Shown here: piece by piece, positions 3,876-45,689 of the stretch
Position numbering within the stretch: position 1 is the first letter of the stretch
Layout: each line of letters opens with the position of its first letter
Origin: Chromera velia
Lineage: Eukaryota
Reading direction: 5' to 3'
DNA length: 51,323 bases
Assembly: GCA_018398765.1 (NCBI GenBank)
Contig: JAHBMJ010000274.1
Coordinates: 1 to 51,323, forward strand
Position numbers and translations under genes: made by a program
The notes under the pieces: model-generated
Database searches by the model: none
Seen by the model: only the letters and a program-made list of their open reading frames with translations
What the model was told of the DNA's origin: nothing

Positions 3876-5003
3876 GCTTCTGTGATATCAAGAATTTGAG
3901 TGAAGATATTGTTGGAGACCCTGCGGAACCGATGGCTCCCCAATAATACCAAACCAGCCGGTTTGATATTGGTGGGGGGGGGTCAAACAATCAAAATTTT
4001 CAAAAGTCTAAATATAAAACATCGCTTTCAATAACGAAACCGAACGATTCCCCACCTCAACAAAAAAGTGAAATTTTGACCCCCCCCTAATAATATAGAA
4101 CCGGCCGGTTTAATATTGTTGGAAAGCTGTCGGCGCCGCTAATTGCGACAACAATAAGCGATACAAGTGTTGTTCAAANNNNNNNNNNNCCTTGCCGCCG
4201 CTCGCCACCGCTCCCCCTTCCTTTTGAGCTCATACCTTGTCTACCCCTCTTCTTCCTGGACGCCCTCTCTTTCGCAGCTCCCTATGTATTCCGCTCTTTC
4301 AAGTTAACATTCTCGTTCACCTCCAACCCCCAACCCGGTCCTGCCCCTCCGCATGCAAACTTTGATACACCATATGCATTACCACAAGTAGCGGTACCAC
4401 GCATCAGACAGTGTCATACAGACATTCACATAGAAAGCCTGCCTAGTGGAAGAATGAAAACAAGTGCCAGCAATAGCGCCAGCACCCCTTTCAACGACAG
4501 AAAGGATCCGAAACTGTAGGAAAACCACGAGGCACACAAATCAGCCACAAAAAGACGTCCGGGCCAATCCCTTTCTGAAAAATCTGGGTCGTTTGCTGAC
4601 GTAGGCAGAAAAGATAAAGGAGACGGGAGGGAAGAAATCAAGACAAGCCCCCTAGCATAATAGAGCGAGAGCAACATCTGCTGGCAAGCAAGCAAGAGAA
4701 AACTTTAAGGCATTCCATAAAGAGGGAAAGATATATTTCTAGTGCATGGTTGCCTGACGGGTCTGGGGCGTTGCTTTCAACCCTTTTCCCAAACAATACC
4801 CATAACCCACTAGAGAAGATTCCACAAGGACTCGATCCACCTCCCAGACAAAGCATAACTGGAGTCCCAAATCCTGCATACATACACGTGAGAAGGAGAG
4901 GAAAAAATCTATGAGCATTCACCAGGGCACATCTTTTCCTGACGCCCAGCCTGACGCCGCATGACGTGCTGCAACAACTTCACATAGTCTGCAGATGGGC
5001 AGA
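3876..5003. repeat. Dispersed repeat A, copy 1 (contains an N gap)
   Basis: Colinear with 42306-44006, from GCTTCTGTGATATCAAGAATTTG to CTGCAGATGGGCAGA. Confidence 0.9.
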
Positions 5004-7115: not shown

Positions 7116-7407
7116 CTATATTTTTTTATTTGTATAGACGCTTATATTAAACGTTGTTTAATAGAACGTTTATAACATATTAAAAAAGAACAGTAAATCG
7201 AAAACGCAGTGTATATAAGCTCTGAATGTAAGCTGCATATACTAATATAGGAATTTGTTGATGAATTGGTTTAAACAATTGAATTTATACCCTTGTAAGA
7301 ATTTAGTTTGTTTAGTCAATAGTATAGGTATAAATGAAACTGATGCTTATATTCACAGTCTGCTTTAGAGGTGGCCTGTATGGAGAACACTGCCTCCACA
7401 TCGTGAT

Positions 7408-7767
7408 TGAGAATGTCGCGGCCGGTGCGGCGGGCGGCCTGCCTAGAGTTTTGGACCCTGGGCGGCGCCGGTCACCCTCTATGCAGACAACAGCGTTTCG
7501 GGACCTCGGGCCACCACGGTATCGAATTGGGTTTCAGAAAAAACGCGGTCTGCAGCAATCGAAACAATCCAAACCGCCAGAAATTCATGGATTCAGCTAG
7601 CTTGATTGAGACTTCTAGCAGTTCGATGGATCGATTTAGCATTGACATTCTCTTTACCTGTATGAACCTGAATAGATCGTGTGCCTGTGTATGTGTATGA
7701 TTGGGTTCCCTCCGAAGGAAACGTCTTCGGAAGGTAGGTTATTCATCTACCACTATAATCAACGTTA
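7408..7767 (+). repeat. 5' LTR (TG...TA)
   Basis: Runs TGAGAATGTC...ATCAACGTTA; about 17 substitutions against the 3' copy by manual alignment (~95% identity). Confidence 0.95.
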
Positions 7768-7783: not shown

Positions 7784-10079
7784 TATCAGATTTCGGTTTC
7801 GTTTGACTGCGTCCACTTCTACCAAAAAATAACCTTCTGATTCCTTCTATCGGCTAAAGTTTGGAGTCCTTCAGCCACTCATCGCTTCTTTCTTCCCTCC
7901 TCTCTTTCCATACAGACGCGAAAGAAGAAGAGAGAGAGAAAAGAAAGAGAGAGAGAAAGAGACGGTACGTCTGCTCTTTGGAGCGAGTCAGTCCCTCCTT
8001 CTCCCATGCATACCATTCATGAAGACTCTCCTTCCACTGAAGTGAGACGTCGTTCTCCCTCTCTTTTACCCAAAAATGATGGCCATGCTGATGCAGAAAG
8101 CCGTTGTTCCATTTTTTTGCCTCCGTCTAATTTTTGTAGGTATGAGACGGCTAGCCCTTTGGCAAAGCTGAATCAAACCTCTTCACTTTTTCCCTCTTCT
8201 GCCCCTCTCCCTCCAATTTTGCCATATTCTCACTCCTTTCCCAACATGAACGAAGGCGGTGCAGATGCAAAAGGCTCTCGTTCCCTTTTTCCCTCTCCCT
8301 CTGGCTTGCGTCCTCAAGAGACTTCAAACCCTTCGGTCAAAGAAACTGAAGAAAGACAAGTCTCTCTTTCTCTTTCCCCCTCTCGCCCTCTCCAACGTAT
8401 AGATCTCGCCTCTGCACAAGCTTTTTCTTCACCTCCATCTCATCTTGTCTCATCTTCGTTTCACATGATCCAACCTTGCAGCAGAGAGATGGCACCTAAG
8501 GCGGCCACGGCGGTGAGTCCAGTCAAGATACCTCTCAGGGTTCGACCTCTCCCCTTCTGTGAACTATCATAGTCCTCTTCCTCTGTTCCATCTCGTCAGA
8601 TCAATGTGGGAGTATCGCATGTTTCGGCCCCCAGATCTTCTTCTTCTCTCGCTCTTTTTCCTGCCTCAGAGTCTGTGTCTGTGAGAGGAAAAGAAGACAA
8701 CCATGAGAAAGAAGTGCATAAAAACAGTGAGACAGATAGGAAGACAGAAAAACAGTCTGATAAAGACCCTGTCCAACCTCCCACTTCCAGTTTCCTTCAA
8801 TCCACCCTTTTGCCTGAGTCTGCCCGTTTCAACGCAGCGGTGCTTGAAGGAAGGCAGAAGGCTGAATGGAAAGAAACCAAACTGAAGGAATTGGAAGAGA
8901 TGAAGCGGAAAGAAGTATGGTATTTGAGAGAGATTGAGACTCGTTTGGCCGTCTCTTAACCTTCACCTGCCCAGATCCCATCTCCTCCCTCCCAACTTCA
9001 CACTGTTCTTTCACCTGAATCTACTCATCTCCACAGTGCTCTCAATGCAGAAAGAGAAAAGGCAGAGCGGAAAGCAAAGCAGGTAAAAGAAATTGAGGAA
9101 TTGAGAAAGAAAGGGAAAGAGATAAGTGATTGGATGCAGGAGACAATGAAGAACAGTGGTCATAATCGTTGCCAACCTGAATTCGTCTCCACTGCCTCTT
9201 TTGGACACCCTCCCTGCCTGCAGGCGACCTCTGGGAGTCTTTACCCCCCCCCTGAGAGAGGACGGGGGGGAATTGATCAAGAAAGAGAGGCAGAAACAGA
9301 GAAACAGAGACCAATTATTGACAGAGACAAAGTGTTGCATGTCGGTAAACTTTCTTATAATCTTTCTTCACCTATGAATGCGACTGCGGACCTTCCTGAT
9401 GGAAAAGTCTAATTTTGCTCGTCCCTTACCCCCCTTTCACCTCCTGTGAATGCAGACCTTCCTGTTGGAAAAGTCCAAAGTCATGCATCTCTCTTTCCAC
9501 CTGTTTCTAGCCCTCTGAATGCGGACCATCCAGTTGGAAGCGTCCAATTTCAGAGTGTACCCTTTCCCCCGCCCATTCGCTTCTCCCAAAGCTTACCGAT
9601 ACAACCGCCTCTATCATCATCTGGTCTAGCGCACGGCCTAACTGGTCTCTGTGTCTCTGGTGTGCCTTGTGGGGAGAACCTTGGTGTCTCTCCTTCTTAA
9701 TCTTTCCTCCTGATAAGTATACACTATCCTTATCCATCCTCATACTCTGCTCACCCTTCCAAACCCCTTGTCTTTCCTATAAACTCTGAAAATTCTTCTC
9801 CTCACTCTTTAGGTTCTTATGCCCCAAAAGCTGAGAATCCTAGGCTTGAATTTTTTGATCCAAGAAATCAGTTTCTTCAGTCTAATTTTTCTACTTTTCC
9901 TAGTGCTCAAAGCGCACAACCTCTGCCTCCTTTTTCAACTAAAGTTAGCATAGAAGTAGGAAAAGAAAACGAAAAAGATGAGGCAATTAGTTTTTCCAGA
10001 CAGCCTGTCTGCAAGCTTAGACTCGTCACAAAGCGAAACTATGAGTCAGAAACAAGGCTCACGAAAGACAAAAAGGAGA

Positions 10080-11460
10080 AAAGAGAGAGTGACGCAGACC
10101 TTCGGCACCGTGACAAGTTGGTCGGACAAATCTTAGAAAAAATAAAGCAGATGCCTAAAGAAATAATTCTCTTTATGCCTAAAGGGAAAGGGATGAAAGG
10201 CAACCCTTTTCTTCATAAAAAAGTTGCTCGTCAGAAACGATAATTCCTCAATCTCTATAGAAACATGACTGAGCCATATTGACCAGCTGTTCAAAATGAG
10301 GTGACAGAACGAGCTCTTGATAGTTTTCCTCGTAGAGCAATCGAAATGCAACCTGAAGCGATTCAATATGAACTGCGTGCTGCTGGTATGTAGATTCGGA
10401 AGGGAATCTGGTCCGAGGAAGAGCAGAATACGGTTCCGATGAGGCTGACGTTCATAGAACTGGAGGCAATCGCTGTGCATATGCAGGGGTATGCCCTCGA
10501 TCTCCTCTTGCTGAGACCAGTCGAGATCATGATGAAGGTATGTAGATGGAAAGGAGAATCTCTCCAAAAATATGCTCTCCGTCTTGACAGAGAAGTGGAG
10601 TCAGAAATGAAATTCCTGACCAAACACATTCTCCCTGATACTTTTACTCTACGCCCTCATCTGCGTCGTCTCCTGCCGTCTGCTCCTGTTTGAAATCCCA
10701 CAGCGACCATCTCTGTGTTCTTTGCAACGGCCGGTCTGGATGACGATGTACACAAACACGCCTCTGATGCTCTGCAAAGATATCATGAACAGGTCATGTT
10801 TATCAGTGCTCTCAGTGATAAAGAAATTTAATGCACAGTATGGTTACTCACGAACACTCTCACTTTTGCTTCTGTCCCAATAGACATTGAACAGGGTCTC
10901 ATATACCCCTGGTTCGTAAATAATGTGAACAGAATAATGAGAAAATGTGGTGCATCTGTGTCTGAACCCGGACCTGACCCTGTTCTGAATGAGACCAGCT
11001 CGCTGGCTATCACACGCATCCAGCAGCACATGAATCGCATGATGAGAGAGCATGGCCATGCAGGTGGAAATCAGAGCCAGCCTGCAGCAAGTGTCCCTCT
11101 TACCCCTTCACAGACAAAGCCTCATTCAAACCAGCCACACGAAAGACAGAAAGGAGGATCGACTCATCAAGTCATTAAGCAGCCTCTCCATCAAACTCCT
11201 CATACATTTACAATGCAAGCTGCTCAGCCGTTTCTCTCAAATCCTCCTCCTCCCCCCCCCCCTTCTGGCAATCCTACCTCTTCTTCTTTGCAGGGTACAG
11301 GGCCACCTACTTTTGGCGTTAGCCCTCCCAGCAGTTCTTCCTCCCCCCCAACTGGATGGCAGGGAGGACCTGCGGGCTCATCTGCGGCCACTCGAGGAAG
11401 AGGAGGACTAACAAGAGGATGTGGGAGAGGGAGAGGCCAAAGAGGCAAGCAAAATGATGG
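10080..11460 (+). pseudogene. gag: Gag-like region (MHR-like motif plus RG-rich tail)
   Basis: WKGESLQKYALRL resembles the retrotransposon capsid xxGESxxxYxxR motif. TRGRGGLTRGCGRGRGQRG precedes the first 2A peptide. Position matches gag. Confidence 0.5.
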
Positions 11461-11461
11461 G

Positions 11462-11509
11462 TGGGTCAAGGATCTGACCAGGGAAGGTATTGAACCTAAC
11501 CCTGGTCCC
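11462..11509 (+). other. 2A/StopGo peptide 1 (WVKDLTREGIEPNPG|P)
   Basis: In-frame complete ExNPGP motif, resembling the avihepatovirus-type DLTxEG(V/I)EPNPGP. Confidence 0.88.
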
Positions 11510-12790
11510 TCTGGCACCGAAAAGGCTGCGGCAATGACAGCTCATCCTCCCTCCCAGGCTGAAGAAAACTTTGAGGGCCAAGAGAGGGAGGAGATGAACG
11601 ATTTCCCTTTTTCAGCACCCTCTGACTCTGATGAAGCGGAGTCGGAAATCTTTGCCTACCATGCGGCCGAGGTCCAGACGAGACTGCCTCATAGACAGCT
11701 ACGTTGGTCGAAACCTCACCCACGCAGGCGTCACAACCCAGACTGAGAGGGCGCTAGGCATCGGAGGAGGCAATCACAGAATGCCATCCCGCAAAGGGAT
11801 TCATACTCTGAGGCCCCTGACCCCCTTCCAAGTGATCCTGTAGCTGAGTCTGATCTTCTTATGATAAGCACTCTAGGGAGAGACTTTTCAACACCTCATC
11901 GGTCTTTTTCAGAGACCCCCCACAGGTCTGACCAGTCAGTTGCTCTCAACTCTCTCATGGTCACACCCCCGAAGCCTTTTAATTTTCATACACAGTTACC
12001 CACGACATCTGCCCATTACTACCCTCCGCCTCCAACAGTACCTCCCTTTCCTCTGTCCCTCCATATTCCCATCGCCCCTCCGACAGTCCGCTCAATCGCT
12101 GCTCCCGAAAGTCTTTCAAGCCCTCCCGCAAACCCCCTTCTTTCCCTCTCAATAGGAAAAGAGGAAATGGAAGGTCCTCCTGAATCCTTCCAGAGAGGGG
12201 CTACACGAAATGAGCGACCAGAAGGAGCTATGGCTGCAAACACAGACCAGCTTGATCATAAAAGGCTGTGAGAGAATAAAGGCCTTTCACCATTCTATGT
12301 GGTAGCAAAGGCAATCAAAGTAATGGGGGGAAAAATGACCGAAGACACAGTACACCCAGTTTTGGCAGACACCATTCTCACTCGATTCCTTCGGGAGCCA
12401 TTCCACCTCGGAACTCCAGCTCTAGAGAACATTTTTTCCCCCGCCACCTCTTTCCGCTCTTTGACTGACCTGGATATCAACATCTTGCTGAAGTATTGGG
12501 GTTTCAGCATGATCCCAATATCTATGCAGGAGGTTCATGACACCCTCGCTCAGCCAATGACCGACCCACACACGTGCCTCGTGGTGGGGGAGGCCTGTCT
12601 CGAAGAGACGGAATGGACAGTTATGGCTCCTTTTGAAGGGGCGCAGACCCAATCAGAGAGACAGAGCTGGACAGAATGGTCTATGAGAAAAGAAAAAGAG
12701 AGAGGAGTCACAGGGTTTGATCTGTTTTTTTGAGAGACAAAAAATGAAGGGACTGAAATGGCCGTCTTCTCACTCGAACGAATACAAACT

Positions 12791-12964
12791 TGTGAGATGC
12801 CTTCTTGTTGAGCATCTCTCCATGAAACGAACTCAAACACCCCCCGTTCTGTCTCCTACCCTGGCTGCCCTTACCCACACTTCGCTTGCACGCCCTGCCG
12901 TACCAAAGCCATGTTCTCGCCCCTCCGTGAACCTTCTCCTAACACTTTTTGCCCCCAGTGTAGA
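12791..12964 (+). pseudogene. RING-type (C3HC4-like) zinc finger within the polyprotein
   Basis: Manual translation in the polyprotein frame: CEMPSC*...CPYPHFACTPC...CPQCR. One TGA at 12809 hides it from the ORF track. Confidence 0.7.
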
Positions 12965-13357
12965 CGCCTTCCTTCCGCAGAGATGAACAAAGCCGAGGAC
13001 TACTGCAGAGCAGTCTGGAAGAGTACGGTCCTACAGCAGACGCTGCCATCTGATCCTATCGCACTGTAAGGACGATTGATTAAATCAATCCATACAAGGA
13101 TCCGATATGCTCAATCTCACCTCACACTCTCAGACGTGTGGCACCTGCATGACCAGCTTAACCACTACCTTGTCGCGTGTTTATGCAGTAGGGAGTGGGA
13201 AGAGTGGGGAGAACACGACGATAGGGAGTCAGATAGATGGGGAGCTGGAGATAAAGAATCTCCTATGAATGTCAATGGAGGCCATGCAGATGCAAACGGC
13301 CCCCAGGATCATTTAGGACCGCCTCCTCAAGAGGAAAACATTCCTTGACCTAGCAGC

Positions 13358-13408
13358 TGGGTGAGAGATCTGACAGCAGACGGGGATGTCGAACCTAACC
13401 CAGGCTGG
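13358..13408 (+). other. 2A-like peptide 2 (WVRDLTADGDVEPNPG|W)
   Basis: In-frame GDVExNPG, resembling the iflavirus-type WxxDLTxDGDVESNPGP; the final Pro is replaced by Trp. Confidence 0.8.
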
Positions 13409-14008
13409 GATGAGGAGAATGATTCTCAGGGTGATAAAGCCCCGGGCAACGACGCCCCTGTTTCAACCCCGCTGTCTTTTCCAGAGCTAGCTCCATCCCT
13501 TACGCCTGCCTCCATGCCTCCCCTTGAGGCACCGTCAGAAGTCTCGGACCTGGGCCTCTCTGACATCCCATTAAATTCCTATGCTCCCTCCGAGGCCGCC
13601 TCAGTTCCGTCAGATGGCACACTCGCTTCTTTAGAAGATCTTGAGGGAATTGAGCTTAGGGATGGAATGTATGGAGGAGGAGGATATTGGGAAAGGAATG
13701 CTGTAAACGACTTCGAGCGGGCGAGAGGGTCCGCACGAGGTTACATCCGACAACTCTACGCCACCCTCTCTGTCATTCCTGCACTCTCTGACCTCGATCT
13801 CAGTGGCCCTGTGATCCTCGGCATCTTCTACCGATCTGGCTGGCACGACGGATCAAATGGTTTCTGGTCAGAGCAGTCGCTAACCTTCATCAACTACGCC
13901 GGTGCCCTCCAATTCCTCCCTAATCCCCTTCCTACCTCCTGGTTTGGTTTTAACCCCTTTTTTAAAAACGTTTCTCAACCAACCCACCCACCACCAATGG
14001 TAGGTGGT

Positions 14009-14056
14009 TGGATCAGAGATTTAACCGAAGAAGGAATTGAGCCGAACCCCGGACAT
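14009..14056 (+). other. 2A-like peptide 3 (WIRDLTEEGIEPNPG|H)
   Basis: In-frame paralog of peptide 1; the final Pro is replaced by His, followed by Pro. Confidence 0.8.
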
Positions 14057-17000
14057 CCAAAGAGGGATGGAAGAGCAGAAACATCAAGAAACAGGGGAAG
14101 TCAGTCATCTACTTCGAGGCCCATTCGCATCCAGCCTTCTCAGGCCCTTCGTGAAAGTAACCGCAACCTCCCCCCACTGCTCGGCCCCACACCTACGATT
14201 CCTTCTGTTCCTTTCTTTGAGGTCCCTTTTCATCAAGAAACCCAAGAGACGTCACAGGCACAAATGGAACCAATAGAGGGAGGCTTTCTTCCGAGTCCAG
14301 ACGCTATCTCAGCGTTCGGACCAGTCTCATCCCCGAGACCGACAGCAGCAGCAGATCTGCCTCCAAACCCGTTTGCCCCGCCTCTACCCCAACTGTCCAT
14401 CTTTTCACCTCCCCCAAACCGAATCCGTCTCTCACAATTGACCCCAAAAAGAACAGTTCAACTATCATCTCCTCCTCGGAGACCTGTAGAGCTGAGACCT
14501 GCAAGTGCTCAGCGATCAGGAAATTACTCAGTTCGGACTGACACTTAGACAAATACAGGTTCGTCCTCTTTCTCATCTTCTGCCGGTGCTGCTATCCTAA
14601 ACCAGAGTCAGCCTTTGTCCTCTATCAGAGGCCCAGGCCTAGTGCTCCGCCTCCACTTGTGTCTGATTATGCCCCCGGAGACCCCTTTTCCAATGATGGT
14701 CAATCAGGAAAAACGATACGGGTCTTACAGAGGACCCCGATAGAAGAACATCAGTTGAACTTCTCCTCCTCCTCGACATCCCGCCCCTTTGCACCTCCCC
14801 AACCCCTTGACCCCAAAGCTTCTTCTCAGTCGACCACATTAATGTTAGGACCAGCTGGGCAAATACAATCAGAAATACAGCCTGAGAATGGAGCGGTTAT
14901 TGGTTCTTTGAAGGAAGGCCGATCTGTCAGGCTCACTCGCAAGAGAGCCTTGCCAGCGAATGAACCTGCCAGTGGCACCGGCATGGAGGAACGTTGGCTC
15001 ATCAACATCCCCATATTGCTGAGAAGCCTTCAACGGATGTGCACTTCTGTGCTGCGACCCAAGGCGCAGGGAAAGTACCCCATACGCGTCCTCCTCGATG
15101 GTGCTACGGATAAGTGCAGGGTCGTTAGTGAGGCTACGCTGCAAATAGAACCGAAAAATGGTGCCATTGAAGTCCCAGATCCCCTCAAGAGAATCCCTCT
15201 CAGACAACTGAAACCGTACACCTTTAAAACGACCGATGGACAGCCCCCCACCTCGGTCCCCTCTGTGGTATGGAGGCGGGCGTTGCAAAAAAAGGGATAC
15301 CCCCAGTCCGCACCTTTGGCAGTCTACCCAACCAGCCACTGGCTGCCAAGTGTTAAAGACAGGGAGTTTGCGATTGTCCAACCTACAAAAGACAGCACAG
15401 GGGATTCGGAACAACTGATTGGTTTTTTCGGTGGAAAGAACAACCTTTTGCATCTGCTAGTAGGTCGGGGGGACCAGTATCTGTTCGATGTTGAGTGCGT
15501 GCTTGCCCCTACATAAGAAAATGAGGAGGCTCAAGCCATCATGACACGTCTCCTAAAAATATCTTTCTGCTCCCTCCCAAACAACCTCCTCAAATTCCTG
15601 CTTGAGGACGAAGGACCAAACGCTCCTGATCCTTCCCGACTGCCTTTCCACCCACCTGACAAGAGCTAAATCTTTAGTCGTGTTCACCTCTTCCATCTAG
15701 AGAGGTTTGATGAATACCATTCAGCAGCGAGAGAGGAGATGCGTGAGCGAGGAGACACGAACCCAAATGAGGATCAAACGAAAAGGATGGCTGATAAGGC
15801 ACTTGACAGTGTCTTGCCTGAGCGCCTTCGCATACCTTGCAGCGCTCGCAGCCTCATCGATGAAAACCACAGACTGCAGGCTTTTCTCTACATCGATTAC
15901 AATCTATCCAACCCTGTCATTACTCCTCCGAGTGGTCTAGTGAGATGGAAAGGCATTGACCCCCGTCCCACAGCCCACGTCATCCTGAAAAAGCTGGACA
16001 GACCTGAATTTTTCAGGTTGTGGAAAGCCACTCGAAAGTCTGGTGCTAAGATTCCGGAGAAGTGGGAGGATCTTTTCATCTCTGAAGAAAAGCATATGCG
16101 GGAGCCCCACAACTCTATCCTGGCTCTGCGACACGACACTTTCAAACCCCTGTTGAACCCAATGTACGCGAGTGCCGATGCATACGACATTTGTGAGGTT
16201 CAACAGTTAGACCCTCGAGCATGCCTCGGACACAACTCGTACAACTGCTTTACCAGCAGTGGACTGACCTCCTGCTGCGGACACCGGCCTGGACTCCAGT
16301 ATAGTTGGAAGGATGGTACGTTTTTCCTCTGCATCTGTGAACTAGACCCCACATGCACCTCCTGCTCATGTCCAGGAGGGGTAAAGTTCAGAGAAATTCG
16401 GGATGAGCCCCTTCACGGGGAACTAAGCCCTTGCTTGAATGGTTCGTGAGGAAGCGTTTCGAGCTTGAGCCAAATGAATGGGACAAGCTTCCGTTCTCTC
16501 TAGCCACCGTGTTTTGACAGATCTTTGTCCATGTTTTTTTTGTCGCACAGAATCCAACGGAGGCACAGCAAGAGGACCGCCCTCCCAATCTAGGGTCAAA
16601 GCTCTACAAAGCGTCTTTACTGAGGGTCGAACTCCCAGCCCAGCGGTGGCACGGAGTTGAAAAGGCAGAGCCATCTCTGTCTTTGACCAAGAATCAAAAG
16701 CACAAAATAGCAGTAAGGCAGAGGTTGACCGAGCCCTTTATCAGAGACCTCAGTCCTTCGATCAGGCTGTCTCTGAGCGACCTGCATGTTCCGACTGGGG
16801 TTCACCCTGACGATGTTCGGGCCGCGGCCCCTCCTCGCCCAGGGGTAGCCGACACCAGATTGCAGTCGGTCCCAGAAGAGCCCGCTGTTCCTTCCAACTT
16901 CAAAGAGGAATCGGAAATAGGCCATAATTTCCTCCTTCTTGAGGCCCTCTATCAAGGAAAATGGGAGAGGCTCATGGAAGGGCAGACGGCGTTGACATAC

Positions 17001-17704
17001 TGGCAATCGACTGGCAGTCAAGTTCCGTCTGCCCGGGCTCTGATTGATTTGATCTGGAAGTCGATCTTGCCAGACAGACTGAACACATTCATTTTGATTC
17101 ACCCTCTTGTCTTCCTGCTCGATCTGCTAACAGACAGTAACGGACACCCTCCAGCTTTTCTCATCCCCATATGGCTCAGGCACACACCCAGTGAGCCTAG
17201 GGCGAAAGCATCCACCCTGCTCCCAAACTGGGTGGTCTTGATGAGGATTTGGGGGTCCGCTGTTTTTTTCTCTCTGGAAAAGCAAGCCCAGTCCAGGCTG
17301 GGAAAGGGTGGTCAGATTGATCAAGCGTCCGACGGCCTTCCCCTCCCTCAACCGTGCGAGAAAAGCTTTTATGCCTGGCTTCTTTATGAAGTTACTCAAA
17401 AGCCCAGGCAGGCTGTGCCTCCTTCCTCTTCTTCATCTACGGGTCTCTCCCTCCACCGCCCCCGCCCTCCACGTCTGACGCTACCAGCACCCTTACCCGC
17501 AGAGGAAGCGCCCTCCCGTTTATCGGCTGCGCCAAGCACGCCGCGTTCCCAATTTCTGGATCAGTGTCTGCAATCCTTCCCCCCCCAAGAAAGAAACACC
17601 ACGAGAAAGAGGCTGAGAATCCGTGATAAGCGACGATTTTCCCCTGTCTCCAGAGAGTTTGCGATCGATATCATGCGCTCCACAACCCGACGGCACGTCG
17701 GGCC

Positions 17705-18040
17705 TAGCAGATCTGGATCCACGTGGCAGCGGATACTGCCAGTTCCATTGACATCATGAGTGTCGATGAAGGTATCCCCCTCCAACTGATCTTTAACAGG
17801 GACGGGGAGCTCCACCCAAACCCCGCTTTCTTTGCGAGAGGGGAGTTTTCGAATGAAAAACAGATGATTCAAGGAGGGGGCGCTCAATTCCCTTCACTGA
17901 GCCGCGGTCTTATCCGAATTCGGATGGATGACACTCGACCACAGACTCTGCGCTCATCTGGGAAGACCCTAGTCCACTTTGCCAAATTTGGTTTCCGAAA
18001 CCACTTCCTCATTTTTGGTCTCAGTTGGCTCCGACGTTGC
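17705..18040 (+). pseudogene. Aspartic protease (retropepsin-like)
   Basis: IHVAADTASSIDIMS is a D-T-G/A-type active site, and the downstream FLIFGLSWLRR fits the hhGxxWL motif. Confidence 0.65.
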
Positions 18041-18660
18041 TCCTTCACTTGGAGAGAATTGGAACCCTACAGGGATGGAACCCGACATATCGAGATCCCC
18101 CATAGAAAAAACCTTCAGGGAATTGAGACGGGATGGAGCCGCTGGCTTCTTCCCGTCGATATCGATCTGATTCACACTCGGGTCACGTTTCTCCGGATCG
18201 ATGAACCCCCCCCTGACACCTACCTTTTCCACCCCGATACCCCCCTTTTTCACCCATCCGTCTCCTTTGTACACCGTCAAAGAAGCCCGAGGGAACGTAT
18301 GACGGATGGGACGGGTGGCAGGGCTCGAGCCCGCCCGGCAGCCTTCTCCCCCGACCCGACTCAAAAGGAACCCAGTCTCCCCGACGGAACCCTCAGTCCC
18401 CTGTCCCTCGTGGGGGACCGTGACGAGAGACCCATTTGGGCAAGGAGGACGTCCTCACCAGACGCCCCCCTCAGCAGAACGAGACCAGCAGCCAGCTTCT
18501 CTCCCCCAGTGTTCTCCAGAAGCCCATTGAAAAATTTTGTCGGAGGAGAGTCGTCGGGAGGAAAGCACTCTGGGCATGCAAGAGGAAGAGCAGTATGTGG
18601 ACGAGGACCAACCCAAAATCAACCCGTATCAGCAATGGGAGACGGAGTAGGATGCAGTGG

Positions 18661-18840
18661 AGATGTAATTGATGGAGCAGCAGGAGGAAGCTCCCCCGCC
18701 TGCCCCCGAATCTGCAGAGCCGATGCAGTTGGTGGAGCAGTAGGAGGAAGCTCCCCCGCCTGCCCCTGAATCTGCAGAATCGATGTAGTTGGTGGAGCAG
18801 CAGGAGGAAGCTCAACCGACTGCCCTCGAACTTGCAGAGT
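18661..18840 (+). repeat. 3 x 60-bp tandem repeat inside the polyprotein
   Basis: Three aligned units (GATGCAGTTGGTGGAGCAGCAGGAGGAAGCTCCCCCGCC...), probably encoding MQLVEQQEEAPPPAPESAEP. Confidence 0.9.
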
Positions 18841-19819
18841 CGATACCGATAGATGAACATCTAGAGAGCGAGGAGGAATTGGTCGATTATGACCTTTGAA
18901 TGAAACGGAAACAAGTCAACAGAATGTTTTTATTTCTCTCACTTCCTTGTCTATGCTTCCACCTCCTGCATTGAATAATCTTCCCTCTTATCCCCTCCCC
19001 CCTCGACACTCTTCCCCCTCCCGTCCCTTCTCTTTTCCTCTTGCTAATATGCAAGTCCCAAAGCAGTCAAAGATTTTGCCTCCAAAAAAACGACTGCGCT
19101 CTCCTTCTAAGAGCAAGAAGTCAAGAAGGAAAGAGCGAGGCCGTGAGAGAAAGGAAAAGTTCGATTGGGAGGTCGGACAGCGTTGTCACTCGCAGTCTCG
19201 CTCAAAGCGACGTTCCTTTAATCAAAGAAAGAGCAACTGAAAGAAACAATCGGACTCTATTCATGCTTCAATGTTCTTTACTTCTTTTGTTGTGTCTCAA
19301 ATGTTTACTCCTCCCTCCACCTCTACTCCCCCTCCTCCCTTTTTTCTTTACGCTGGTGCTGGTAATTCTGACTCTCCCTTCGACGAAGTTTCTTTCCTTT
19401 GTAACCCTCTTCCTCCTCAACTCACGCAAATCTATTCAGATCATTTTTCACCTGCAGTTTTTTCTGACTCAGTTGAGAAAGGAGGCCTTTTCTGTCTCTT
19501 TGGATCTCTTGCTTCAGAAGAGAACAGACTGACAGCAGAGAACCTCTAACGAACGTCTTTGTCTTCTTCTTCTCTTCCCCTCTCCTCTTCTATGCACGAA
19601 CTTTTTTCTTTTAAAAGAAAGGCCACTGACCATTTTTCATGTTGTTCTTCCTCAGCTGCTGTACGGGAGGAAGACGATGATTGGGATAAGATCTCATCTG
19701 CAGAGTACATATATGCATCTTCAGTTTGTCTTTCTAAAAATTCCGATTCATCTGACTGCATCTTTGCCAACGTGCCCGACAACAAGCGTCCTAATAAGGT
19801 GAAAGTCAGTGCAGAATAT

Positions 19820-20700
19820 GCATGTGAGTACCTGCAGTATGTACATTAGGAAGTGGGGCATATTGGTAGAAAGGCTTTCTACACTTTCGTCTCTCCGTAT
19901 CTTGCCGTGAGAGGCCTGAGAAAAATGTGTGAAGAACTAAGAGCAGAGTGCAACACTTGCCTGCAAGTCCACGGTCTCCTAAGGCGCCTTCATGGACAGA
20001 GAGGCTCTCATCTGAGAATTTGTGCCCCCCTGCAGCAGATAGCGGTGGACACAATTTTTCTGTATGGTCAACCTATCTTGACGGTCATGTGTGAAGCGAC
20101 AAGTTTCCTCATGGCCATCCCACTGAAAAACACGAAGGCAGAGACTGCATGGAAAGCTTTTGAAGAAGGATGGTTGAGACCTTTTGGCTGTCCTCTCTCT
20201 TTTCGTGGGTTTGTAAAAACGGACAATAGGAGTGAATTCAAGGCCGTTTTCTCCTCTATGCTGGAGGACTTAGGAGTTAGACAGTTATGGACCCCCCTCG
20301 GTCTACCTCGGGCCAATGGGCTGCTCAAACATCGGCATGACGATTTGAAACGTCTTGTCGAAGCAGCTCTTTTAGACAGAGGCCTAGAAAAACGGCACTT
20401 CCGTCAAGTTTTTCCTTGCTGTGTGTCTCAACTTAACCTCTTTCCCTCTGTCAACTCTGATAAAAGATTTCTGTATGAACGTCTTACATCTCAACGTCTT
20501 CTCCCCCCCTCTCTTGAATGCATGCTTGCTGAAGTTCATAAGAAAAGTCCGACAGCACTCTCTCCCCTGAACTTGACTGTCAGAGAAAGAGTGTATTGGA
20601 AGAACCCTCGAAAGACCTACCGCTCGCTGGACATCAAGTGGCGGCTCTTTGAAGTATCCTCTCTCGTCCCTCACTCCCGCTTCCTCGTCTATTTGACTCC
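19820..20700 (+). pseudogene. Integrase (HHCC + DDE core + SH3-like tail)
   Basis: VH*EVGHIG...CNTC; IAVD; KTDNRSEF; TPLGLPRANGLLKHRH, where the catalytic E appears mutated to K. Confidence 0.92.
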
Positions 20701-22109
20701 CATCTCTAAGTCTGGAGAGAGACTGCAGAGTAAGGAGTATCTTGCCCACTCTTCTTGTTTTGTTCGTGCACCTTCTCACCCCCTCGCTTCTTTCTCCCGC
20801 CCTGCCCCAACTGATCGCCAGTCGCAGTCTGAGAGACCCCCTGAGACTAGAAGGGATCTCTTTATAGAGGTACCAAGTGATGACAGACTACAAGAACCAG
20901 CTCGGTCTGCAAGCGATCAATCAAAAAAGAAATCTTCCTCTTCTTTCTCTTTTTCTTCCATTCCTTTTGCAGAAAGCATGGAGTTCAAAAGTCAAAAAGA
21001 CTCGTTTCCCATTGGGTTGGCCTCGGCCGGCCCTCTCCCAATCAATGAAAGAGAGGCACAGTCTTCAAAGGATTCTCGCTCACTTCCAGATGGAAGACAG
21101 ACCGATGAAGTCAGAGCGGGAAAGAAATCTGTATCTCAGTCTGCTCATTCTTGCTCTTCTTCTTCTCATTCTTTTCCACGTATTCTTGAAGGAGAACCTA
21201 TTTTTTTGTTTTCTGAGCCTGTCCTCCCTCAACCTCCCTCTTCCCAAAGACAACCCAAGTCAGAAAAAGACACTGAACGCCAGAGTTTACTGACCCCTTC
21301 TCCTTCAGATGGAGAGACGTGGCGTTTCACAGTCTAGAGAAACCCAGAGCTGTTGAAGAAGTGTCCATTGATCTTCTGGAAGGATAAAGAGCTGCAGAAA
21401 GGCATAGTTGGAAGGAAGGTTGGGATATTGACAGATGGATTTCTTCTTGTACATGTATGGGGGTCCTATTCACAAGGACAACTGACAGTGTGTGAAAGAG
21501 TCCTTGCCCCACAGTTTCATCATCCCAACAACACTATCTGTTCCACCCTGACTCCTTCACTCACTTGCTTTCCTCACATCCAAAAGGTGTCGCCTTCTTG
21601 TCTGAGAGAATCAGAACTTTTCCTTTCTTTTTCTCGTTGCCTGCTTCCTGATGCATGTGCAAAAATCGCAAAGCACCTTGACTCAGCCTCAATCTCTCGT
21701 CTTGGACTCAATCAGAGCAAGACAGCAGACGCGATCAAAAAGACGGAGGACTGGTTGAGAGAAGCACTCAAACTGTCCCCCGATCTTATACTTCAGGAGA
21801 TAGAAACAGCGTCTACTGACATTCTATCAGACAGCGAAGAAGATAAATCGAATCAGCTGATAGAAAGTGCTTTCTTTTGTCTTGATGGTCTAACTGACCC
21901 TTGACAGTTCCCAATTCCTTTTTACTCTTCTAATGTCCCCAGTCCCTCTCTCCCTGATCTATCCGTCTCGTCTTCGTCTTCTTCTTTTTCTTTTTCTTTG
22001 TCTTCCTCCCTGTCCTCTTCAGCAGCTGCAAAAGGAGAGAAACAGGCTCATTGTTTTGCTGCAGGAGCAACGCATCAAAAATTCTCAGTACGTCGCCTCT
22101 CTCCAGATC

Positions 22110-23070
22110 AGGTGACAGACTTTAAGGCAGCCAGGCAGAAGGAGTTAGACAAATTTGAACGTTTTCGTGTATTTAAGGCAGTTCCAGTTCAGTCGGTTCC
22201 CAAGGGTTCAGTCGTCTTGCCTACACTGTGGGTAGAGACCTTGAAACTGAATGACGAGGGTGAAAGGGAATTCAAGTCGAGATGGGTGATTCGGGGAGAT
22301 CAGGACCCGCGAAAAGGTCTCGAGGTGGCAACTGACCTATGTCCGCCCAAGAATATTTGCTTGATGCTACTTGCAGCACTCAGTAGCGCAGGTTTCGACC
22401 CGTCTTTCATCAGCACTGTAGACGTAGACAATGCATTTCTGCAAGCACCAATGAATGACATGATGTATGTACTCCCTCTGAAAGAACATCCTGACTATGG
22501 CAAAAAGCTCTGGCTGTTGCAGCAACGTATGTATGGACTCTCTGAAAGCCCCCTTCTTTTTCAAAAATTTCTTGAATCAAAACTTCTCAAACATGGATGG
22601 GTGAAATCTCCCCTCTGGGGAATTTGGTGGAAACTGTCAACTGACGGGGAAGTGGTTGCATTGATGTCTCTCTATGTCGACGATGTCTATGTTGCCAGCC
22701 TCAGTGGCCCAGCAGAGAGCCATCTGCAAGAAATTATAAGAAGTTGAATGTAAGCAGATCAGATCACTGCAGAGGTATATTGGAGTGTTCTATGAGGTTA
22801 CAAAGGATGAGATCTAGTGCTCACAGGAGTCTTATACAGCTAGTCTGAATGACAGAGGTGTCAGACCCCTAGTCAATCCCATCCCCGATGCAGCAAAAAA
22901 GCAAGCAGACACTTCTCCCCCCCTGAACAAGAAAGAGACAAAAGCTTTCCAACAGAGTCTGGGTGAGCTTTCTTACCTGGCCTCTTTTACGCGTCCTGAT
23001 TTGGCGTACGGCACAAGTCACATGACACAGTGGAATGCCGTTCCAACCGTAAATGCTTTTCGATGGCTCC
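22110..23070 (+). pseudogene. Copia-type reverse transcriptase (RVT_2)
   Basis: FKSRWVIRGDQ, VDVDNAFLQA, MYGLSESP and YVDD (22673-22684); after a frameshift, RYIG...SQESY...GELSYLASFTRPDLAY. Confidence 0.96.
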
Positions 23071-23139
23071 AGCGACTTGTTTCCTGGGCTCGTGCATACT
23101 CCCTCCATGGAGTGGCAGTTCCTCGCTCTCCCAGAGCAG

Positions 23140-23620
23140 AGCCCCTGCATGTTAAATTACATACTGATGCATCTTTTGGCACCCCAGCCCATCCCGAGCC
23201 TCAAATCGGGTAGGTACTCACCGTCTGTGGATGTCCCCTTGCCTGGAAGTCCATCAAACCGAAGAAGGTAGCAAAATCCACAACGGATGCAGAATTCATT
23301 GCCGCAGAGAACGGGGTCGAACTTCTCTCCTCTCTCCTCCCTTTCTTTGAGAAGCTTTGGCCGAAAGTACACAGAACGCTTTGGTCTGACAGTCACGATC
23401 TCGTGTCCCTGGTCGGTCAACCCGTCTATTCTGGTGCGAGGGCAACAGTTACTCAACAGTCTCTTGCCACTGAAATCGACGACCTGCGAGAGAGAGAAGC
23501 AGTAGAGACGTCTCTAGTCAGCATATTGCAGAAAGCAGTGCACCAGGATGTTCAAGAGAAGTTTATTGCCCTTGAGCATATTTCAACTGTCCGGAACGTT
23601 GCTGACCCTCTCACAAAGGG
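23140..23620 (+). pseudogene. Copia-type RNase H
   Basis: HTDASF, AWKS..KKVAKSTTDAEFIA, WSDS and HISTVRNVADPLTK. Confidence 0.93.
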
Positions 23621-26600
23621 AAAAAGTACGCATAAGCTCTACCGACTGTTAGAACAGAAGGGAAGGGAAGCACGGAAAGGTGCGACACATCCTCCTCCTG
23701 ACCCACAAAGGAGGCCTATTCTTCTGCAATCTGACCTTCAAGCAGAAGTGTCAGTGTTCTTTGAGAATGTGAACCGAGCTCAAACCACTTTCTCACAATT
23801 TTTTCCACGCTTTCCCCTCATCTGTCCGACTCGTGCTCTTTGTGATATATCTGTGACTCCTCTCTCAGCCTTTCACTTCCGCATGCTCTCCCTTGCCATG
23901 GCTTGCTCAGCTTGCCATCAGATAGGACATTCATCTAACACATGCCCTGATGTGGAGGCAGAATGCAAGGGAAGAAAGGAACTCTACCTTGAGCAAGCAG
24001 GACATATTGGCAAAGGGTGTACGTTCTGTGCTGCGGTCGGCTTCCTCAGCAAAGCCCATCGAGCAGCAGATCACGCGGTTGACCAGAGAATGCCTCCAAC
24101 CACACCGGCTCCTGTCACCTTGATTGGACGCCTGGTGCGGCCTCAAATCCTCTGAAGTGCACCCTTCGGGACCTGCATGAATGCATAAATGCATGGCATT
24201 TGCTTCATTTTTTCTTCCTCTCCCTCTTCTCTTCCTATGCATGCATTCCTCTCTCTCATTGTGTATATCAACAAAGACCAGGCCTGGCAACACCACAATG
24301 AAATTGAATGCCTCCCTTGAATGTCTCCTCCCGTTTCTTCTTTTTTTGAATGTATATGATCGCTTCTGTTCTTTTATTGTTTCCTTCTCTCACTGCAACT
24401 GGACAACCCTAATTTAACCTCCACTTGAATTCCATATAAGCCATAAAGTGAAGGAGGGGCGCTCGAAAAAGAGATTGAAAAAGAATGAATAAAGTGAAGG
24501 AGGGGTGATCCCCCGCAAAAACATTGACAAAGTGAAGGAGGGGCCCCTTCTCACAGTTTTTTTTTCTTTCACACGAACAAACCTGCATGCGATTTTTTCG
24601 GTCACTCCATGCATGTATGGAGCTTGACTATAAAGAACCATAAAGTGAAGGAGGGGGCGGCGCGACGAAGCGCTATGTCCTTCCTCCGGAAGATAAAAGA
24701 AGGAATACAGACAGCTGCCACAAGAAAGATCAAGTGAGTCAATGGTATGAAGGGAGGGGGACGCCTCACCCTTTGCCTGGCAAACTAACTCTGACCTCTC
24801 TTCCCTTCTCTGCTTGTTTCTCTTCTCTTCTCTTCTCTTCTCTTCTTTTCTGTATTTCGATTGTTTCTTCTTCCTCACCCGGCAGGGACCCCTCCCCCCT
24901 CCTTTTCTGTCATGAGTTGTCTTTCTCCCCTCTTAAAATAGCTAACCGCAAGAATCAAGCCACATTTTTTCTCTTCAGTTTTTTCCTTTCTCTGACACTT
25001 CTCTTCTTATGTCTGACTGAATAAGCGATCGATCATTTGTCTTTCTGTTCCACTGTGTACCCTCTTCTCTCTTCCCAATGAATGCATTTGTATACATAAA
25101 TGCATACATGCAAGTGAAAAAGAAAAAGACATTTGATTCCTGCAAGACCATAACAAAGAAAAGAAAGTGCGAGACTGTCAGTTGAACCTACCCGTCTCTT
25201 GGCAGACCCTTGCAACCAGCCAATGCATGTCTTCTCTCCCTCTTCTCCTCTTTTGTGAACACAGGCAGGACGAATGCATGAATGATTCTGGTGGTCAGCC
25301 CTCAGGCCGAGCAAGAATCTGGTTTCTCTCTGTGCCTTCTCTTCTTAGACTCTAATCTCGACTGCTGCCGACAATCCTACAAGAAGAAAAATACCCTCAA
25401 AGGAGTCCACGTCAAAGCACCAGGTGTCCCCCCACCAATTGTGCGAGACTCCACAACGGCAGCATACATGAACATTTTTGTCGAGACTGGATTCGAAAGA
25501 AAGAAAGAAAGCTGGAGGAAACGGATTCAACACTGAAGTTCTTCTTGCATTTTGACCTGTTCTATGTTTATTTTGGAGGTTCCTTTTTTTCTTCAGTTTT
25601 ATCTTCAGAAGAAAAGAGCAGTCTGAAAGAAGCAGGGAAAGGAAAAAGATGATCACGTCGAGTTTGCACTAACCGGTCAAGTCTATGCCTCTTGTGTCTC
25701 CATATGTCTCCCTTTCCTTCCTTCCCGATCACGTAAGTGTCAGGAAGAATAAAAAGGACTGACAAGACGTACCAACAGCTGCAGCTTGAAGATCTGCAGT
25801 CTTTCCTCGTTACCTGCAGTCAAAAGATATATGAATGTGCGAAATAAGACAAGAGAATTCATGTAAGCATGCTTAGTCTTAATGCTCCTCTCCCCTTTTT
25901 CTCATCCCCGGTCTCAACGGAGTTTGATGCATAGAATTACTTGGCCACTTCATGAAAAAGTGGCTACAGTCTTTCTTTTTTCTTTGTTTTCTGTTAGCTG
26001 GTCCTGGTACCTTGCCCTTATCGCTCTACCAATTCATTTTTCTTTGTGTGGTTTCCCCAAACTTGAGAGAAATTGCCGACTTGACCTCCCTTCCTCCATA
26101 CCGCCCTCCTTTTCTCACAACTGTCAAGCCTGGCTTTCTCTCTCTCGCTGAAAGATTACTAAAAGAAAGAGTTCCTAACTTCTCCTTTCCTGACTCCCCC
26201 CTTTCTTTCAATCCCTTCGTCCCCAATACCATAACATCATGCGAATTTTGAGGACAGCGTGAATGCATGCATGATGCGGAATGATGGTGTTTGTGAATGA
26301 ATCATCACCACACCCCCCCACATCACAATCAACACAACCAACCGGTTTGTTATACCACCAAGTCATCATTTAAAGGATCTTCTATGAGATATATAAAGCC
26401 AGAAAGACACGCGAACGGACCTGGTTGCTGGTAGATGATGGAAGTAAGAAGACGGTGATGATATGCGATTCGGAACTGATGCCGTCTCCTTGTCCATGTC
26501 ATTGCCCCCCCCCTTCTCCCCTTCCTCATCACCAACCTTTCTCCTTTCTCCTCAGCCTTGTCCTCCCTCAGAAGCGAGACGAGAAGCCAGGAAATGTAGT

Positions 26601-27041: not shown

Positions 27042-27401
27042 TGAGAATGTCGTGGCTGGCGCGGCGGGCGGCCTGCCTGGAGTTTTAGACCCTGGGCGGC
27101 GCCGGTCACCCTCTATACAGACAACAGCGTTTCGGGACCTCGGGCCACCACGGTATCGAATCGGGTTTCAGAAAAAACGCGGTTTGCAGCAATTGGAACA
27201 ATCTAAACCGCCAGAAATTCATGGATTCAGCTAGCTTGATTGAGACTTCTAGCAGTTCGATAGATCGATTTAGCATTGACATTCTCTTTATCTGTATGAA
27301 CCTGAATAGATCGTGTGCCTGTATGTGTGTGTGATTGGGTTCCCTCCAAAGGAAACGTCTTCGGAAGGTAGGTTATTCATCTACCACTATAATCAACGTT
27401 A
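27042..27401 (+). repeat. 3' LTR (TG...TA)
   Basis: Colinear copy of 7408-7767, followed by the TSD GTGAT. Confidence 0.95.
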
Positions 27402-28439
27402 GTGATCCAATCGAAACATTTAAGTTTTGATCGGCCAACAACTGAATCTGAGCTGCGTCTTATTGTGGAAATCTAGGTGGGAATATGAATCGTATGTCAC
27501 GTCTGCATACTTTAAGAGTAGTATCATGTAGTCTGGATTGTGACCTCAATCAATCGATAATCGACTGACATTCGACTGACAGTGTCTTAGCTTACAGCCA
27601 TATGGTAAAAGAAGCTGAACATAGAAATGTTTGTGTCGGTTTGTGTACAGTCGTGTGTTGCTGTCGTGTTTACCAAATTGAATGCTGTATGATTGATAGG
27701 CAAGGGGCGCAAGCGAGTTTGTATTAGTATAGTCACTTATGAATATTTGTTCGCAGCGGAGAGACCAAGCAGTGAGATTCCGACCGTGTGTGTCTTCCTG
27801 TGGTGAAGGAAGAGTAGGTAAAGAGGTGCCTCCGGCAGTCACTGTGTACTTTTCTGTGTCTATCAAGAAACGTTGAGGCTGAACAGCAATGAAGTTTACA
27901 CAGCAAGGCATGCAGAATGGTTGGGCATCAGATTATGGCAGACATACATATGTAGAAGGAAGAAAACTAGGGAGTAAAAGTCTGCTCCGCAGTTAGGCAT
28001 GCAGGATAGTCAAGCATAGGGGTGTACTATCCTCCTATTAAGACACCAGGGGGGGGGGGGCATCCAAGTTTGCTCCGTTATGCCCGTGGATGGCGGGACG
28101 AGCATCAGGCGCTTTGCGCCTGATGCACTGGACACCGCCCCCCCCGGTGTCCACTGCTACCGGCCCATGCAAGAAGGGATACCCCCCCCCGGTGTCCATG
28201 CGGAGTTGCCCACCGAGGCTGACGTTCAGCTTTTTAATGCATGCATGCATGCATACATTTTTTTTTTTAGAGGCCCATGCATACAACAATGCTCCATAAC
28301 ATGTTTTATGGGTGCAAACCGGGGAAAGTCTCTCAAAATTATGCACCTGAACGTGCCTGAACGGCAACACCCACCCAACCTTCCTCACTGAGTCCTCTGC
28401 TAATCAGCACCGGCCACTCAACCTAAAAAGTTCGGCGAA

Positions 28440-45560: not shown

Positions 45561-45689
45561 TCTTGACTCGGCGGAAATTTCTCTGGAATGCGGAGACTCA
45601 CTGACGGAGGGAATTCTCAGGACTTGCAGGACTACAGGAGATTTTATGGAGACTTCAAGCAGGAGGGAATCATTTTCTGGTTCCCATAA

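What the first reader, a model, noticed from the sequence alone, without database searches (positions are those of the whole stretch)
12791..12964. Hidden RING finger in the segment flanked by 2A-1 and 2A-2
Seen: C-x4-C...C-x3-H-x2-C-x2-C...CPQCR in the polyprotein frame, missed by the ORF track because of one TGA (probably from CGA). Established: C3HC4 RINGs are usually E3 ubiquitin ligases, and viruses use them against host defence. Inference: the element releases a RING protein that may counter silencing. The first Cys pair spacing (x4) is atypical.
Basis: partly seen in the sequence, partly recalled or inferred. Interest (0 to 1): 0.75.

Follow-up and report, generated by a model that had tools for sequence, protein, structure and literature searches.

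The report
RING finger in giant algal retrotransposon
A 20-kb jumping gene of the alga Chromera velia carries, between two virus-style ribosome-skipping signals, a zinc-finger pattern under selection that likely folds as a RING domain and would let the element tag proteins with ubiquitin; this copy is broken, but its sister copies lack the stop inside the finger.

Summary
The motif is real: C-x4-C-x19-C-x3-H-x2-C-x2-C-x17-CPQCR at 12791-12964, found in 0 of 100 shuffled windows. It lies in the long first reading frame of a 19,994-bp Ty1/copia LTR retrotransposon of Chromera velia. The internal TGA is decay of this copy: none of the 5 runs laid reads a stop there. One sister contig spanning the motif keeps all 8 ligands, and 10 of its 12 own changes in the motif are at third codon positions (p=0.0005), so the frame is under selection. 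A RING fold is not shown: Pfam gives only a sub-threshold half match (E 0.45), no homologue with the finger was found, AlphaFold without an alignment failed, and the x4 first pair breaks the canonical definition. The 2A-bounded product would be about 633 aa, not a lone RING: a disordered part, a possibly dead papain-type deubiquitinase-like domain (lead only), the finger and helices. 2A-2 ends NPG-W, a rare variant shown active in viruses. Nothing supports 'counters silencing'. Verdict: RING-like accessory domain of an unusual giant copia element; new variant of a known kind.

The parts
12791..12964 (+). RING-like zinc finger, C3HC4 ligand order, atypical C-x4-C first pair, ends CPQCR; TGA at 12809-12811 in this copy only
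   Evidence: Pfam zf-RING_5 E 0.45 on the second half
11507..13405 (+). 633-codon segment between the 2A-1 and 2A-2 skip sites: Pro/Ser-rich part, papain-like lead, RING-like finger, helical tail; six stops in this copy
   Evidence: five of the six stops are absent in siblings; 13067 unresolved
12272..12780 (+). Possible catalytically dead papain-type (Josephin/VTD/Ulp1-like) domain directly before the finger; lead only
   Evidence: Atlas feature scores 0.85 (Josephin) and 0.82-0.83 (Peptidase_C48), both under the tool's 0.9 bar; no Pfam or PDB hit
12965..13345 (+). Predicted helical region after the finger; TAA at 13067 in this copy
   Evidence: low-confidence secondary structure
11462..11509 (+). 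2A-1, class B StopGo-like peptide ending NPG-P
   Evidence: identical peptide listed, untested, in PMC12338488 Table S2
13358..13408 (+). 2A-2, DLTxDG-type StopGo-like peptide ending NPG-W
   Evidence: motif type and natural p19 = W variant in PMC12846837
14009..14056 (+). 2A-3, class B StopGo-like peptide ending NPG-H
10202..11461 (+). Gag-like region with Gly/Arg-rich end, in frame with 2A-1; label by eye, no Pfam hit
7408..7767 (+). 5' LTR, 360 bp, TG...TA; target duplication GTGAT at 7403-7407; TGG primer-site start at 7769
27042..27401 (+). 3' LTR; purine-rich tract just before it; target duplication GTGAT at 27402-27406; 17 of 360 positions differ from the 5' LTR, all transitions
19853..20293 (+). 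Integrase (zinc-binding part and core), upstream of RT
   Evidence: rve E 0.0023, Integrase_H2C2 E 0.06-0.11, both below curated cut-off
22187..22699 (+). Ty1/copia reverse transcriptase
   Evidence: RVT_2 E 3.7e-16, 59.9 bits against cut-off 31.6
23145..23700 (+). RNase H-like region, by eye only
   Evidence: no Pfam hit

Best explanation
The motif is a selected, protein-coding zinc-finger pattern in a giant Ty1/copia retrotransposon of Chromera velia; it likely folds as a variant RING domain inside an accessory protein of about 633 aa that the ribosome would release from the Gag polyprotein by skipping at the two flanking 2A peptides, and it likely works as a ubiquitin ligase or E2-binding adaptor for the element. 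Shown: motif, frame, element anatomy, host, stop private to this copy, synonymous excess. Inferred: cross-brace fold (about 0.75), skipping at both ends (about 0.55), E2 binding or ligase activity given the fold (about 0.6). Speculative: that the neighbouring domain is a dead deubiquitinase fold that brings ubiquitin or substrate to the finger (about 0.35). The target is not known; tuning the turnover of the element's own proteins is as likely as attacking a host restriction factor. This copy cannot make the protein; sister copies probably can.
For: Pattern in 0 of 100 shuffled windows. Ligands 3-8 fit RING-HC spacing in a published table (PMC8601054 Table 1), with Pro after ligand 7 and Arg after ligand 8 (their role in E2 contact is recalled). 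The only RING-type Pfam match is zf-RING_5 on residues 48-78. A helix is predicted right after ligands 5-6 (low confidence). The stop at 12809 is absent at full depth in X1-X4 and X7. The X3 contig spans the motif in one piece; all 24 differences are listed, none removes a ligand; 12 of 17 lineage-specific sites are synonymous third positions (p=0.002), 10 of 12 inside the motif (p=0.0005). A more distant contig (38 differences in 242 nt) shows no ligand loss among the 20 sites assignable to it. Sibling protein P0006 runs open from the Gag-like end through 2A-1 past two stops of this copy. Natural p19 = W StopGo reached 91.5% activity in vitro (PMC12846837). Precedent for ubiquitin-system cargo in mobile elements.
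Against: First pair is x4; all 587 RING domains in the flax table have x2. Ser precedes ligand 2 and Ala sits fourth after ligand 6, where hydrophobic E2 contacts are usual (usual residues partly recalled). Pfam score 11 bits against cut-off 27.9. No protein with the finger among 1.84 billion representatives or in the word search. The ligand test has little power: by chance no ligand codon would be hit with probability 0.37; 8 rows were hidden and 18 of the 38 differences of the distant contig are unassigned; one X1 contig changes ligands 3 and 5 to Tyr. Whether siblings carry the TAA at 13067 or the W of 2A-2 was not visible (40 of 122 rows shown). Highly active retroelement 2A peptides were of classes A and X, not B (bioRxiv 10.64898/2026.09.24.754024), and PMC12338488 calls the terminal PGP essential.
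Confidence: 0.5

Rival explanations
1. A two-zinc finger that is a protein- or nucleic-acid-binding module without ligase activity (a RING-fold scaffold or another C3HC4-order fold).
For: x4 first pair and missing usual hydrophobic E2 contacts; sub-threshold profile score; selection on the frame fits any folded domain.
Against: CPxCR end with Pro and Arg at RING-typical positions; neighbouring ubiquitin-peptidase-like lead.
Confidence: 0.25
2. Passenger cargo: a host gene or a piece of a Josephin- and 2A-bearing LINE (Dualen/RandI type) captured into the copia element, with the synonymous excess left over from earlier function.
For: Region 11000-19000 has GC mostly 0.51-0.55 against 0.42-0.50 in flanking parts; Josephin plus 2A occurs in algal Dualen/RandI LINEs (bioRxiv 10.64898/2026.06.17.732966 section 13).
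Against: Cargo is in frame with the Gag-like region in two copies; no LINE RT or endonuclease hit in the cargo ORFs tested; no closer host or LINE relative found; selection is seen between sub-lineages that differ by about 9%.
Confidence: 0.13
3. One reading: the released RING protein is a ligase aimed at host silencing machinery.
For: Analogy with viral RING proteins (recalled). This copy shows C-to-T decay enriched at CpG (9 of 28 sites against 14% background, p=0.012), which suggests methylation, so there may be silencing to counter.
Against: No substrate evidence; no paper on Chromera transposon methylation came up; the genome paper's main text has no occurrence of RNAi, silencing or methylation.
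Confidence: 0.1
4. Chance cluster of Cys/His in a decayed frame, or a single MYT1-like CCHC finger.
For: No significant homologue or fold match; weak MYT1 hit E 0.18.
Against: 0 of 100 shuffles; synonymous excess; the His at 12821 that the MYT1 reading needs is changed in the distant contig.
Confidence: 0.02

Closest known systems
RING-HC (C3HC4) zinc fingers / E3 ligases
   Same: Ligand order C,C,C,H,C,C,C,C; spacings of ligands 3-8 inside the published RING-HCa ranges; CPxCR end.
   Different: x4 instead of x2 between ligands 1 and 2; 19 residues between ligands 2 and 3 (RING-HCa 10-16); profile score below cut-off; fold and activity untested.
Burro/GYPSM1 giant LTR retrotransposons of planarians (PMC6431247 section 7)
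   Same: Very long polyprotein with accessory domains tied to ubiquitination and apoptosis, including a motif annotated as RING zinc finger.
   Different: Burro is Ty3/gypsy in animals; no 2A peptides are described in that section. This element is Ty1/copia in an alveolate alga with three 2A-like peptides.
2A-bearing non-LTR retrotransposons (L1Tc, Ingi, CR1, L2, Crack; Dualen/RandI with Josephin DUB)
   Same: StopGo-like peptides dividing a retroelement polyprotein; deubiquitinase-fold cargo next to a 2A.
   Different: Those are LINEs, mostly with a 2A before the endonuclease; one Ty3-like case is noted. None of the 8 papers listed contains the word copia.
Class B / motif 1 and 4 StopGo peptides (PMC12338488, PMC12846837)
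   Same: W[VI][RK]DLT signature in all three; 2A-1 is itself in the published table as Chromera entries B56, B58, B661, B697, activity not tested.
   Different: 2A-2 and 2A-3 end in W and H; the 2A-2 sequence had 0 hits in that table; retrotransposon context and cargo were not described in the passages seen.
Helitron VTD/OTU deubiquitinases and their inactive derivatives (PMC9741609)
   Same: Transposon-borne papain-fold ubiquitin enzymes, some with lost active sites.
   Different: DNA transposons; no RING partner in the passages seen; the domain here is only a weak lead.

Membership tests
RING-HC (C3HC4) | Eight ligands in order C3-H-C4 | tested here: met
RING-HC (C3HC4) | Two residues between ligands 1 and 2 | tested here: not met
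   four residues; x2 in all 587 domains of PMC8601054 Table 1. Filed as RING-like, not as a canonical member.
RING-HC (C3HC4) | Spacing of ligands 3-8 (x1-3, x2-3, x2, loop, x2) | tested here: met
   3, 2, 2, 17, 2
RING-HC (C3HC4) | Profile score above a curated RING cut-off | tested here: not met
   zf-RING_5 11 bits against 27.9, E 0.45, second half only
RING-HC (C3HC4) | Ligands conserved among copies | tested here: inconclusive
   kept in the X3 contig (24 of 24 differences seen) and at the 20 of 38 assignable sites of the distant contig; two lost in one X1 contig; chance of no hit 0.37
RING-HC (C3HC4) | Cross-brace two-zinc fold | tested here: inconclusive
   single-sequence models pLDDT 46.4 and 34.7; fold searches uninformative
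RING E3 ligase | E2 binding and ubiquitin transfer | not testable with these tools
   Pro and Arg present; Ser before ligand 2 and Ala fourth after ligand 6 are unusual
Ty1/copia LTR retrotransposon | Paired LTRs with target-site duplication, primer site and purine tract | tested here: met
   360-bp LTRs, GTGAT on both sides, TGG at 7769, purine run before 27042; ends are TG...TA, primer tRNA not identified
Ty1/copia LTR retrotransposon | Copia-type RT, integrase upstream of RT | tested here: met
   RVT_2 E 3.7e-16; rve E 0.0023 upstream
Ty1/copia LTR retrotransposon | Gag, protease and RNase H domains | tested here: inconclusive
   by eye only; no Pfam hits in this decayed copy
StopGo/2A class B | N-terminal Trp and [DG][VI]ExNPG core | tested here: met
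   all three peptides (definitions)
StopGo/2A class B | Terminal Pro (p19) | tested here: not met
   present in 2A-1; W in 2A-2, H in 2A-3. W is a natural active variant; W and H kept over 80% activity in cell-free P2A tests
StopGo/2A class B | Peptide-bond skipping activity | not testable with these tools
   2A-1 listed as untested in PMC12338488 Table S2
Josephin / papain-fold deubiquitinase (neighbouring domain) | Profile or fold match | tested here: inconclusive
   Atlas 0.85 Josephin, 0.83 Herpes_teg_N, 0.82-0.83 Peptidase_C48; nothing in Pfam or PDB sequence search
Josephin / papain-fold deubiquitinase (neighbouring domain) | Catalytic Cys-His-Asn/Asp triad | tested here: inconclusive
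   no Cys in the N-terminal helix region of either copy; triad positions placed only by eye against a recalled pattern

The most novel reading that the evidence does not exclude
A giant copia retrotransposon expresses itself like an RNA virus: three StopGo peptides, two with non-proline p19 residues, cut a roughly 5,000-codon polyprotein into Gag and a set of accessory proteins, one of which joins a dead deubiquitinase fold to an active variant RING ligase and so edits host ubiquitin signalling in a free-living relative of apicomplexan parasites.
Probability: 0.2. Interest if true: 0.8.

Novelty: new variant of a known kind. Interest (0 to 1): 0.52.

Why it matters
Copia elements are known as compact. 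A 20-kb copia with StopGo-partitioned cargo would add a virus-like way of expressing accessory proteins to this superfamily, and give natural test cases for non-proline 2A ends in a cellular genome. A RING with a C-x4-C first pair that still ligates ubiquitin would widen the RING definition.

Tried and rejected
No whole genome was held. Homologue searches found only two Chromera gene models, neither containing the finger; the finger query among proteins of 192-2000 aa gave 7 candidates, none scoring; proteins under 192 aa were covered only. P0007 (E 4e-4) is a repeat protein, rejected. No relatives in metagenome contigs (150 pattern hits, 0 confirmed), viral contigs (18, 0 confirmed) or phage records. 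AlphaFold on single sequences failed; Foldseek and VIA searches gave no significant match, which says nothing about the fold. No language-model look-alike search of the finger itself was obtained. MYT1-like CCHC reading rejected. LIM, PHD and IBR patterns (recalled) do not fit the ligand order, by eye. Expression: no RNA holder listed; X3 and X4 are only guessed to be RNA, so their contigs count here as sequence variants, not as transcripts. No joint across the predicted intron of Cvel_16283 was seen in X1-X4. PHROGs gave nothing useful. Earlier scan findings: none. The original Dualen paper was not held. PMC5408684 has no RING cargo. No complex prediction was run: no eukaryotic E2 sequence was on hand.

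Full report
Observation. The pattern is present as described: Cys codons at 12791, 12806, 12866, 12887, 12896, 12950 and 12959 and His at 12878, spacings 4, 19, 3, 2, 2, 17, 2, ending CPQCR, with TGA at 12809. A loose RING pattern occurs once in the six frames of the window and in 0 of 100 block-shuffled windows; 7 of the 16 Cys in the 1,449-codon frame 10202-14548 sit in these 57 residues.

The element. The motif lies in a 19,994-bp LTR retrotransposon: 360-bp LTRs at 7408-7767 and 27042-27401, ends TG...TA, a GTGAT duplication on both sides, TGG at 7769 and a purine run before the 3' LTR. The LTRs differ at 17 of 360 positions, all transitions. RT is copia type (RVT_2, E 3.7e-16) and a weak integrase match lies upstream of it (rve E 0.0023). 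One low-stop frame runs from about 8000 to 14546 and continues through frame changes to about 23700, which suggests one decayed giant polyprotein (inference). The two real relatives found are Chromera velia CCMP2878 gene models: Cvel_16283 maps to this copy at 97.5-100% over its exons and skips the finger as an intron; Cvel_27326 is a sibling at 90%.

The stop and selection. Five of the 7 runs that hold the stretch were laid. All read a non-stop at 12809 at full depth (X1-X4; X1, X2, X3, X7). The stops at 12731 and 13346 are also absent in X1-X4, and those at 11744 and 12269 are absent in the sibling protein. The TAA at 13067 was not among the 40 of 122 rows shown, so it is unresolved; one contig identical to this copy carries it. 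Of 30 sites where this copy differs from the rest, 28 are C-to-T type and 9 of those are at CpG (p=0.012): this copy is decaying. The X3 contig covers the motif in one piece, and its 24 differences are all listed. None removes a ligand; two are silent changes in ligand codons. Of its 17 lineage-specific sites 12 are silent third positions (p=0.002), 10 of 12 within the motif (p=0.0005). A more distant contig in X1 and X2 has 38 differences in 242 nt; I could assign 20 by their depth values and none removes a ligand; 8 rows were hidden. Against this, one 109-nt X1 contig changes ligands 3 and 5 to Tyr, and ligand conservation alone has weak power (chance of no hit 0.37). So the frame is under coding constraint; invariance of the ligands is consistent but not proven.

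Is it a RING? Ligands 3-8 fit published RING-HCa spacing, but all 587 domains in that table have two residues between ligands 1 and 2 (PMC8601054, passages and Table 1 seen). Pro follows ligand 7 and Arg follows ligand 8; Ser precedes ligand 2 and Ala is fourth after ligand 6; the E2-contact roles of these positions are recalled. Pfam gives zf-RING_5 at E 0.45, 11 bits against 27.9. No homologue with the finger was found. Single-sequence AlphaFold gave pLDDT 46.4 and 34.7 and the fold searches were empty of meaning. It is filed as RING-like, not as a canonical RING-HC member.

The 2A frame. Three StopGo-like peptides share the frame: 11462-11509 (NPG-P), 13358-13408 (NPG-W), 14009-14056 (NPG-H). 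2A-1 is already listed as an untested class B peptide from Chromera (PMC12338488, passages and supplement Table S2 rows seen); another Chromera peptide ending NPWP was inactive there. That paper calls PGP essential, but natural p19 = W peptides reached 91.5% in vitro and the DLTxE and DLTxDG upstream motifs match ours (PMC12846837, passages seen), and W or H at p19 kept over 80% in cell-free P2A tests (bioRxiv 10.64898/2026.09.24.754024, passages and section 31 seen). The same preprint found no class B among highly active retroelement peptides. If both sites skip, the product is 633 aa, about 250 of them Pro/Ser-rich. The domain just before the finger drew Josephin (0.85), herpes tegument DUB and C39 look-alikes from one record and Ulp1/C48 from the other; these are below the tool's 0.9 bar, shuffled proteins reach 0.8 a third of the time, and Pfam and PDB searches were blank. 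It lacks a Cys where a papain-type nucleophile would lie (by eye), so at best it is a dead enzyme fold.

Mechanism. Most likely the element translates Gag and cargo as one frame, StopGo releases the 633-aa accessory protein, and its finger binds two zinc ions as a variant RING that recruits an E2, with the neighbouring domain possibly holding ubiquitin or substrate. Everything after the frame and the motif is inferred. No call identifies a target. CpG-biased decay hints at methylation, but no paper on Chromera transposon silencing came up, so anti-silencing stays at about 0.1.

Comparison and novelty. Ubiquitin-system cargo in mobile elements is known: Burro gypsy elements (PMC6431247, passages and section 7 seen), Helitron VTD/OTU domains (PMC9741609, passages), Josephin plus 2A in algal Dualen/RandI LINEs and one Ty3-like 2A (bioRxiv 10.64898/2026.06.17.732966, passages and section 13). 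I found no report of a copia element with 2A peptides or RING cargo: one search returned 0 papers with all four terms, and none of the 8 papers listed contains 'copia'; some searches were seen as listings. The library lacks most subscription papers and Repbase, and the supplements of the two bioRxiv preprints, which list thousands of 2A peptides and retroelement contigs, were closed and may include this element. The Chromera genome paper (PMC4501334, passages seen) used a 1-15 kb LTR separation, below this element's size. Also seen as passages only: 10.1101/2021.04.23.441226, PMC13547354, PMC5408684.

Verdict. Observation confirmed, interpretation partly supported. New variant of a known kind; interest 0.52, carried more by the 2A-partitioned giant copia than by the finger alone.

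Noticed in passing
window 7800-23700: A low-stop reading frame runs almost continuously, with about four frame changes, suggesting one polyprotein of roughly 5,000 codons; the cargo part 11000-19000 has higher GC than the flanks.
   Followed up: partly
window 17770-17830: A possible fourth, degenerate 2A-like stretch of the Leu-rich type, ending DGELHPNPA; by eye only.
   Followed up: no
window 16990-17350: By eye resembles a dead Ulp1/C48-like peptidase (recalled pattern); no Pfam or PHROGs hit.
   Followed up: partly
window 16200-16400: Second Cys-rich cluster in the cargo, unassigned.
   Followed up: no
window 18653-18844: Short 60-nt tandem repeats coding an acidic Pro-rich unit near the end of the cargo.
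   Followed up: no
window 19853-19969: The integrase zinc-binding part scores weakly against Integrase_H2C2 although the RT is copia type.
   Followed up: no
window 31663-35053 (- strand): Decayed LINE with endonuclease (Exo_endo_phos E 7e-6) and RT (RVT_1 E 8e-19).
   Followed up: no
window 45647-46249 (- strand): Ty3/gypsy Gag fragment (Ty3_capsid E 3e-6, Retrotrans_gag E 1e-5).
   Followed up: no
window 3876-5003 and 42305-44006: Two copies of a repeat at about 90% identity with an internal inverted repeat.
   Followed up: no
window 29370-30680, 39870-40050, 47370-48110: Arrays of about 70-73-nt and 35-nt tandem repeats.
   Followed up: no
window 12323-18766: Gene model Cvel_16283 strings together open pieces of this decayed element and treats the finger as intron; probably an annotation artefact.
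   Followed up: partly
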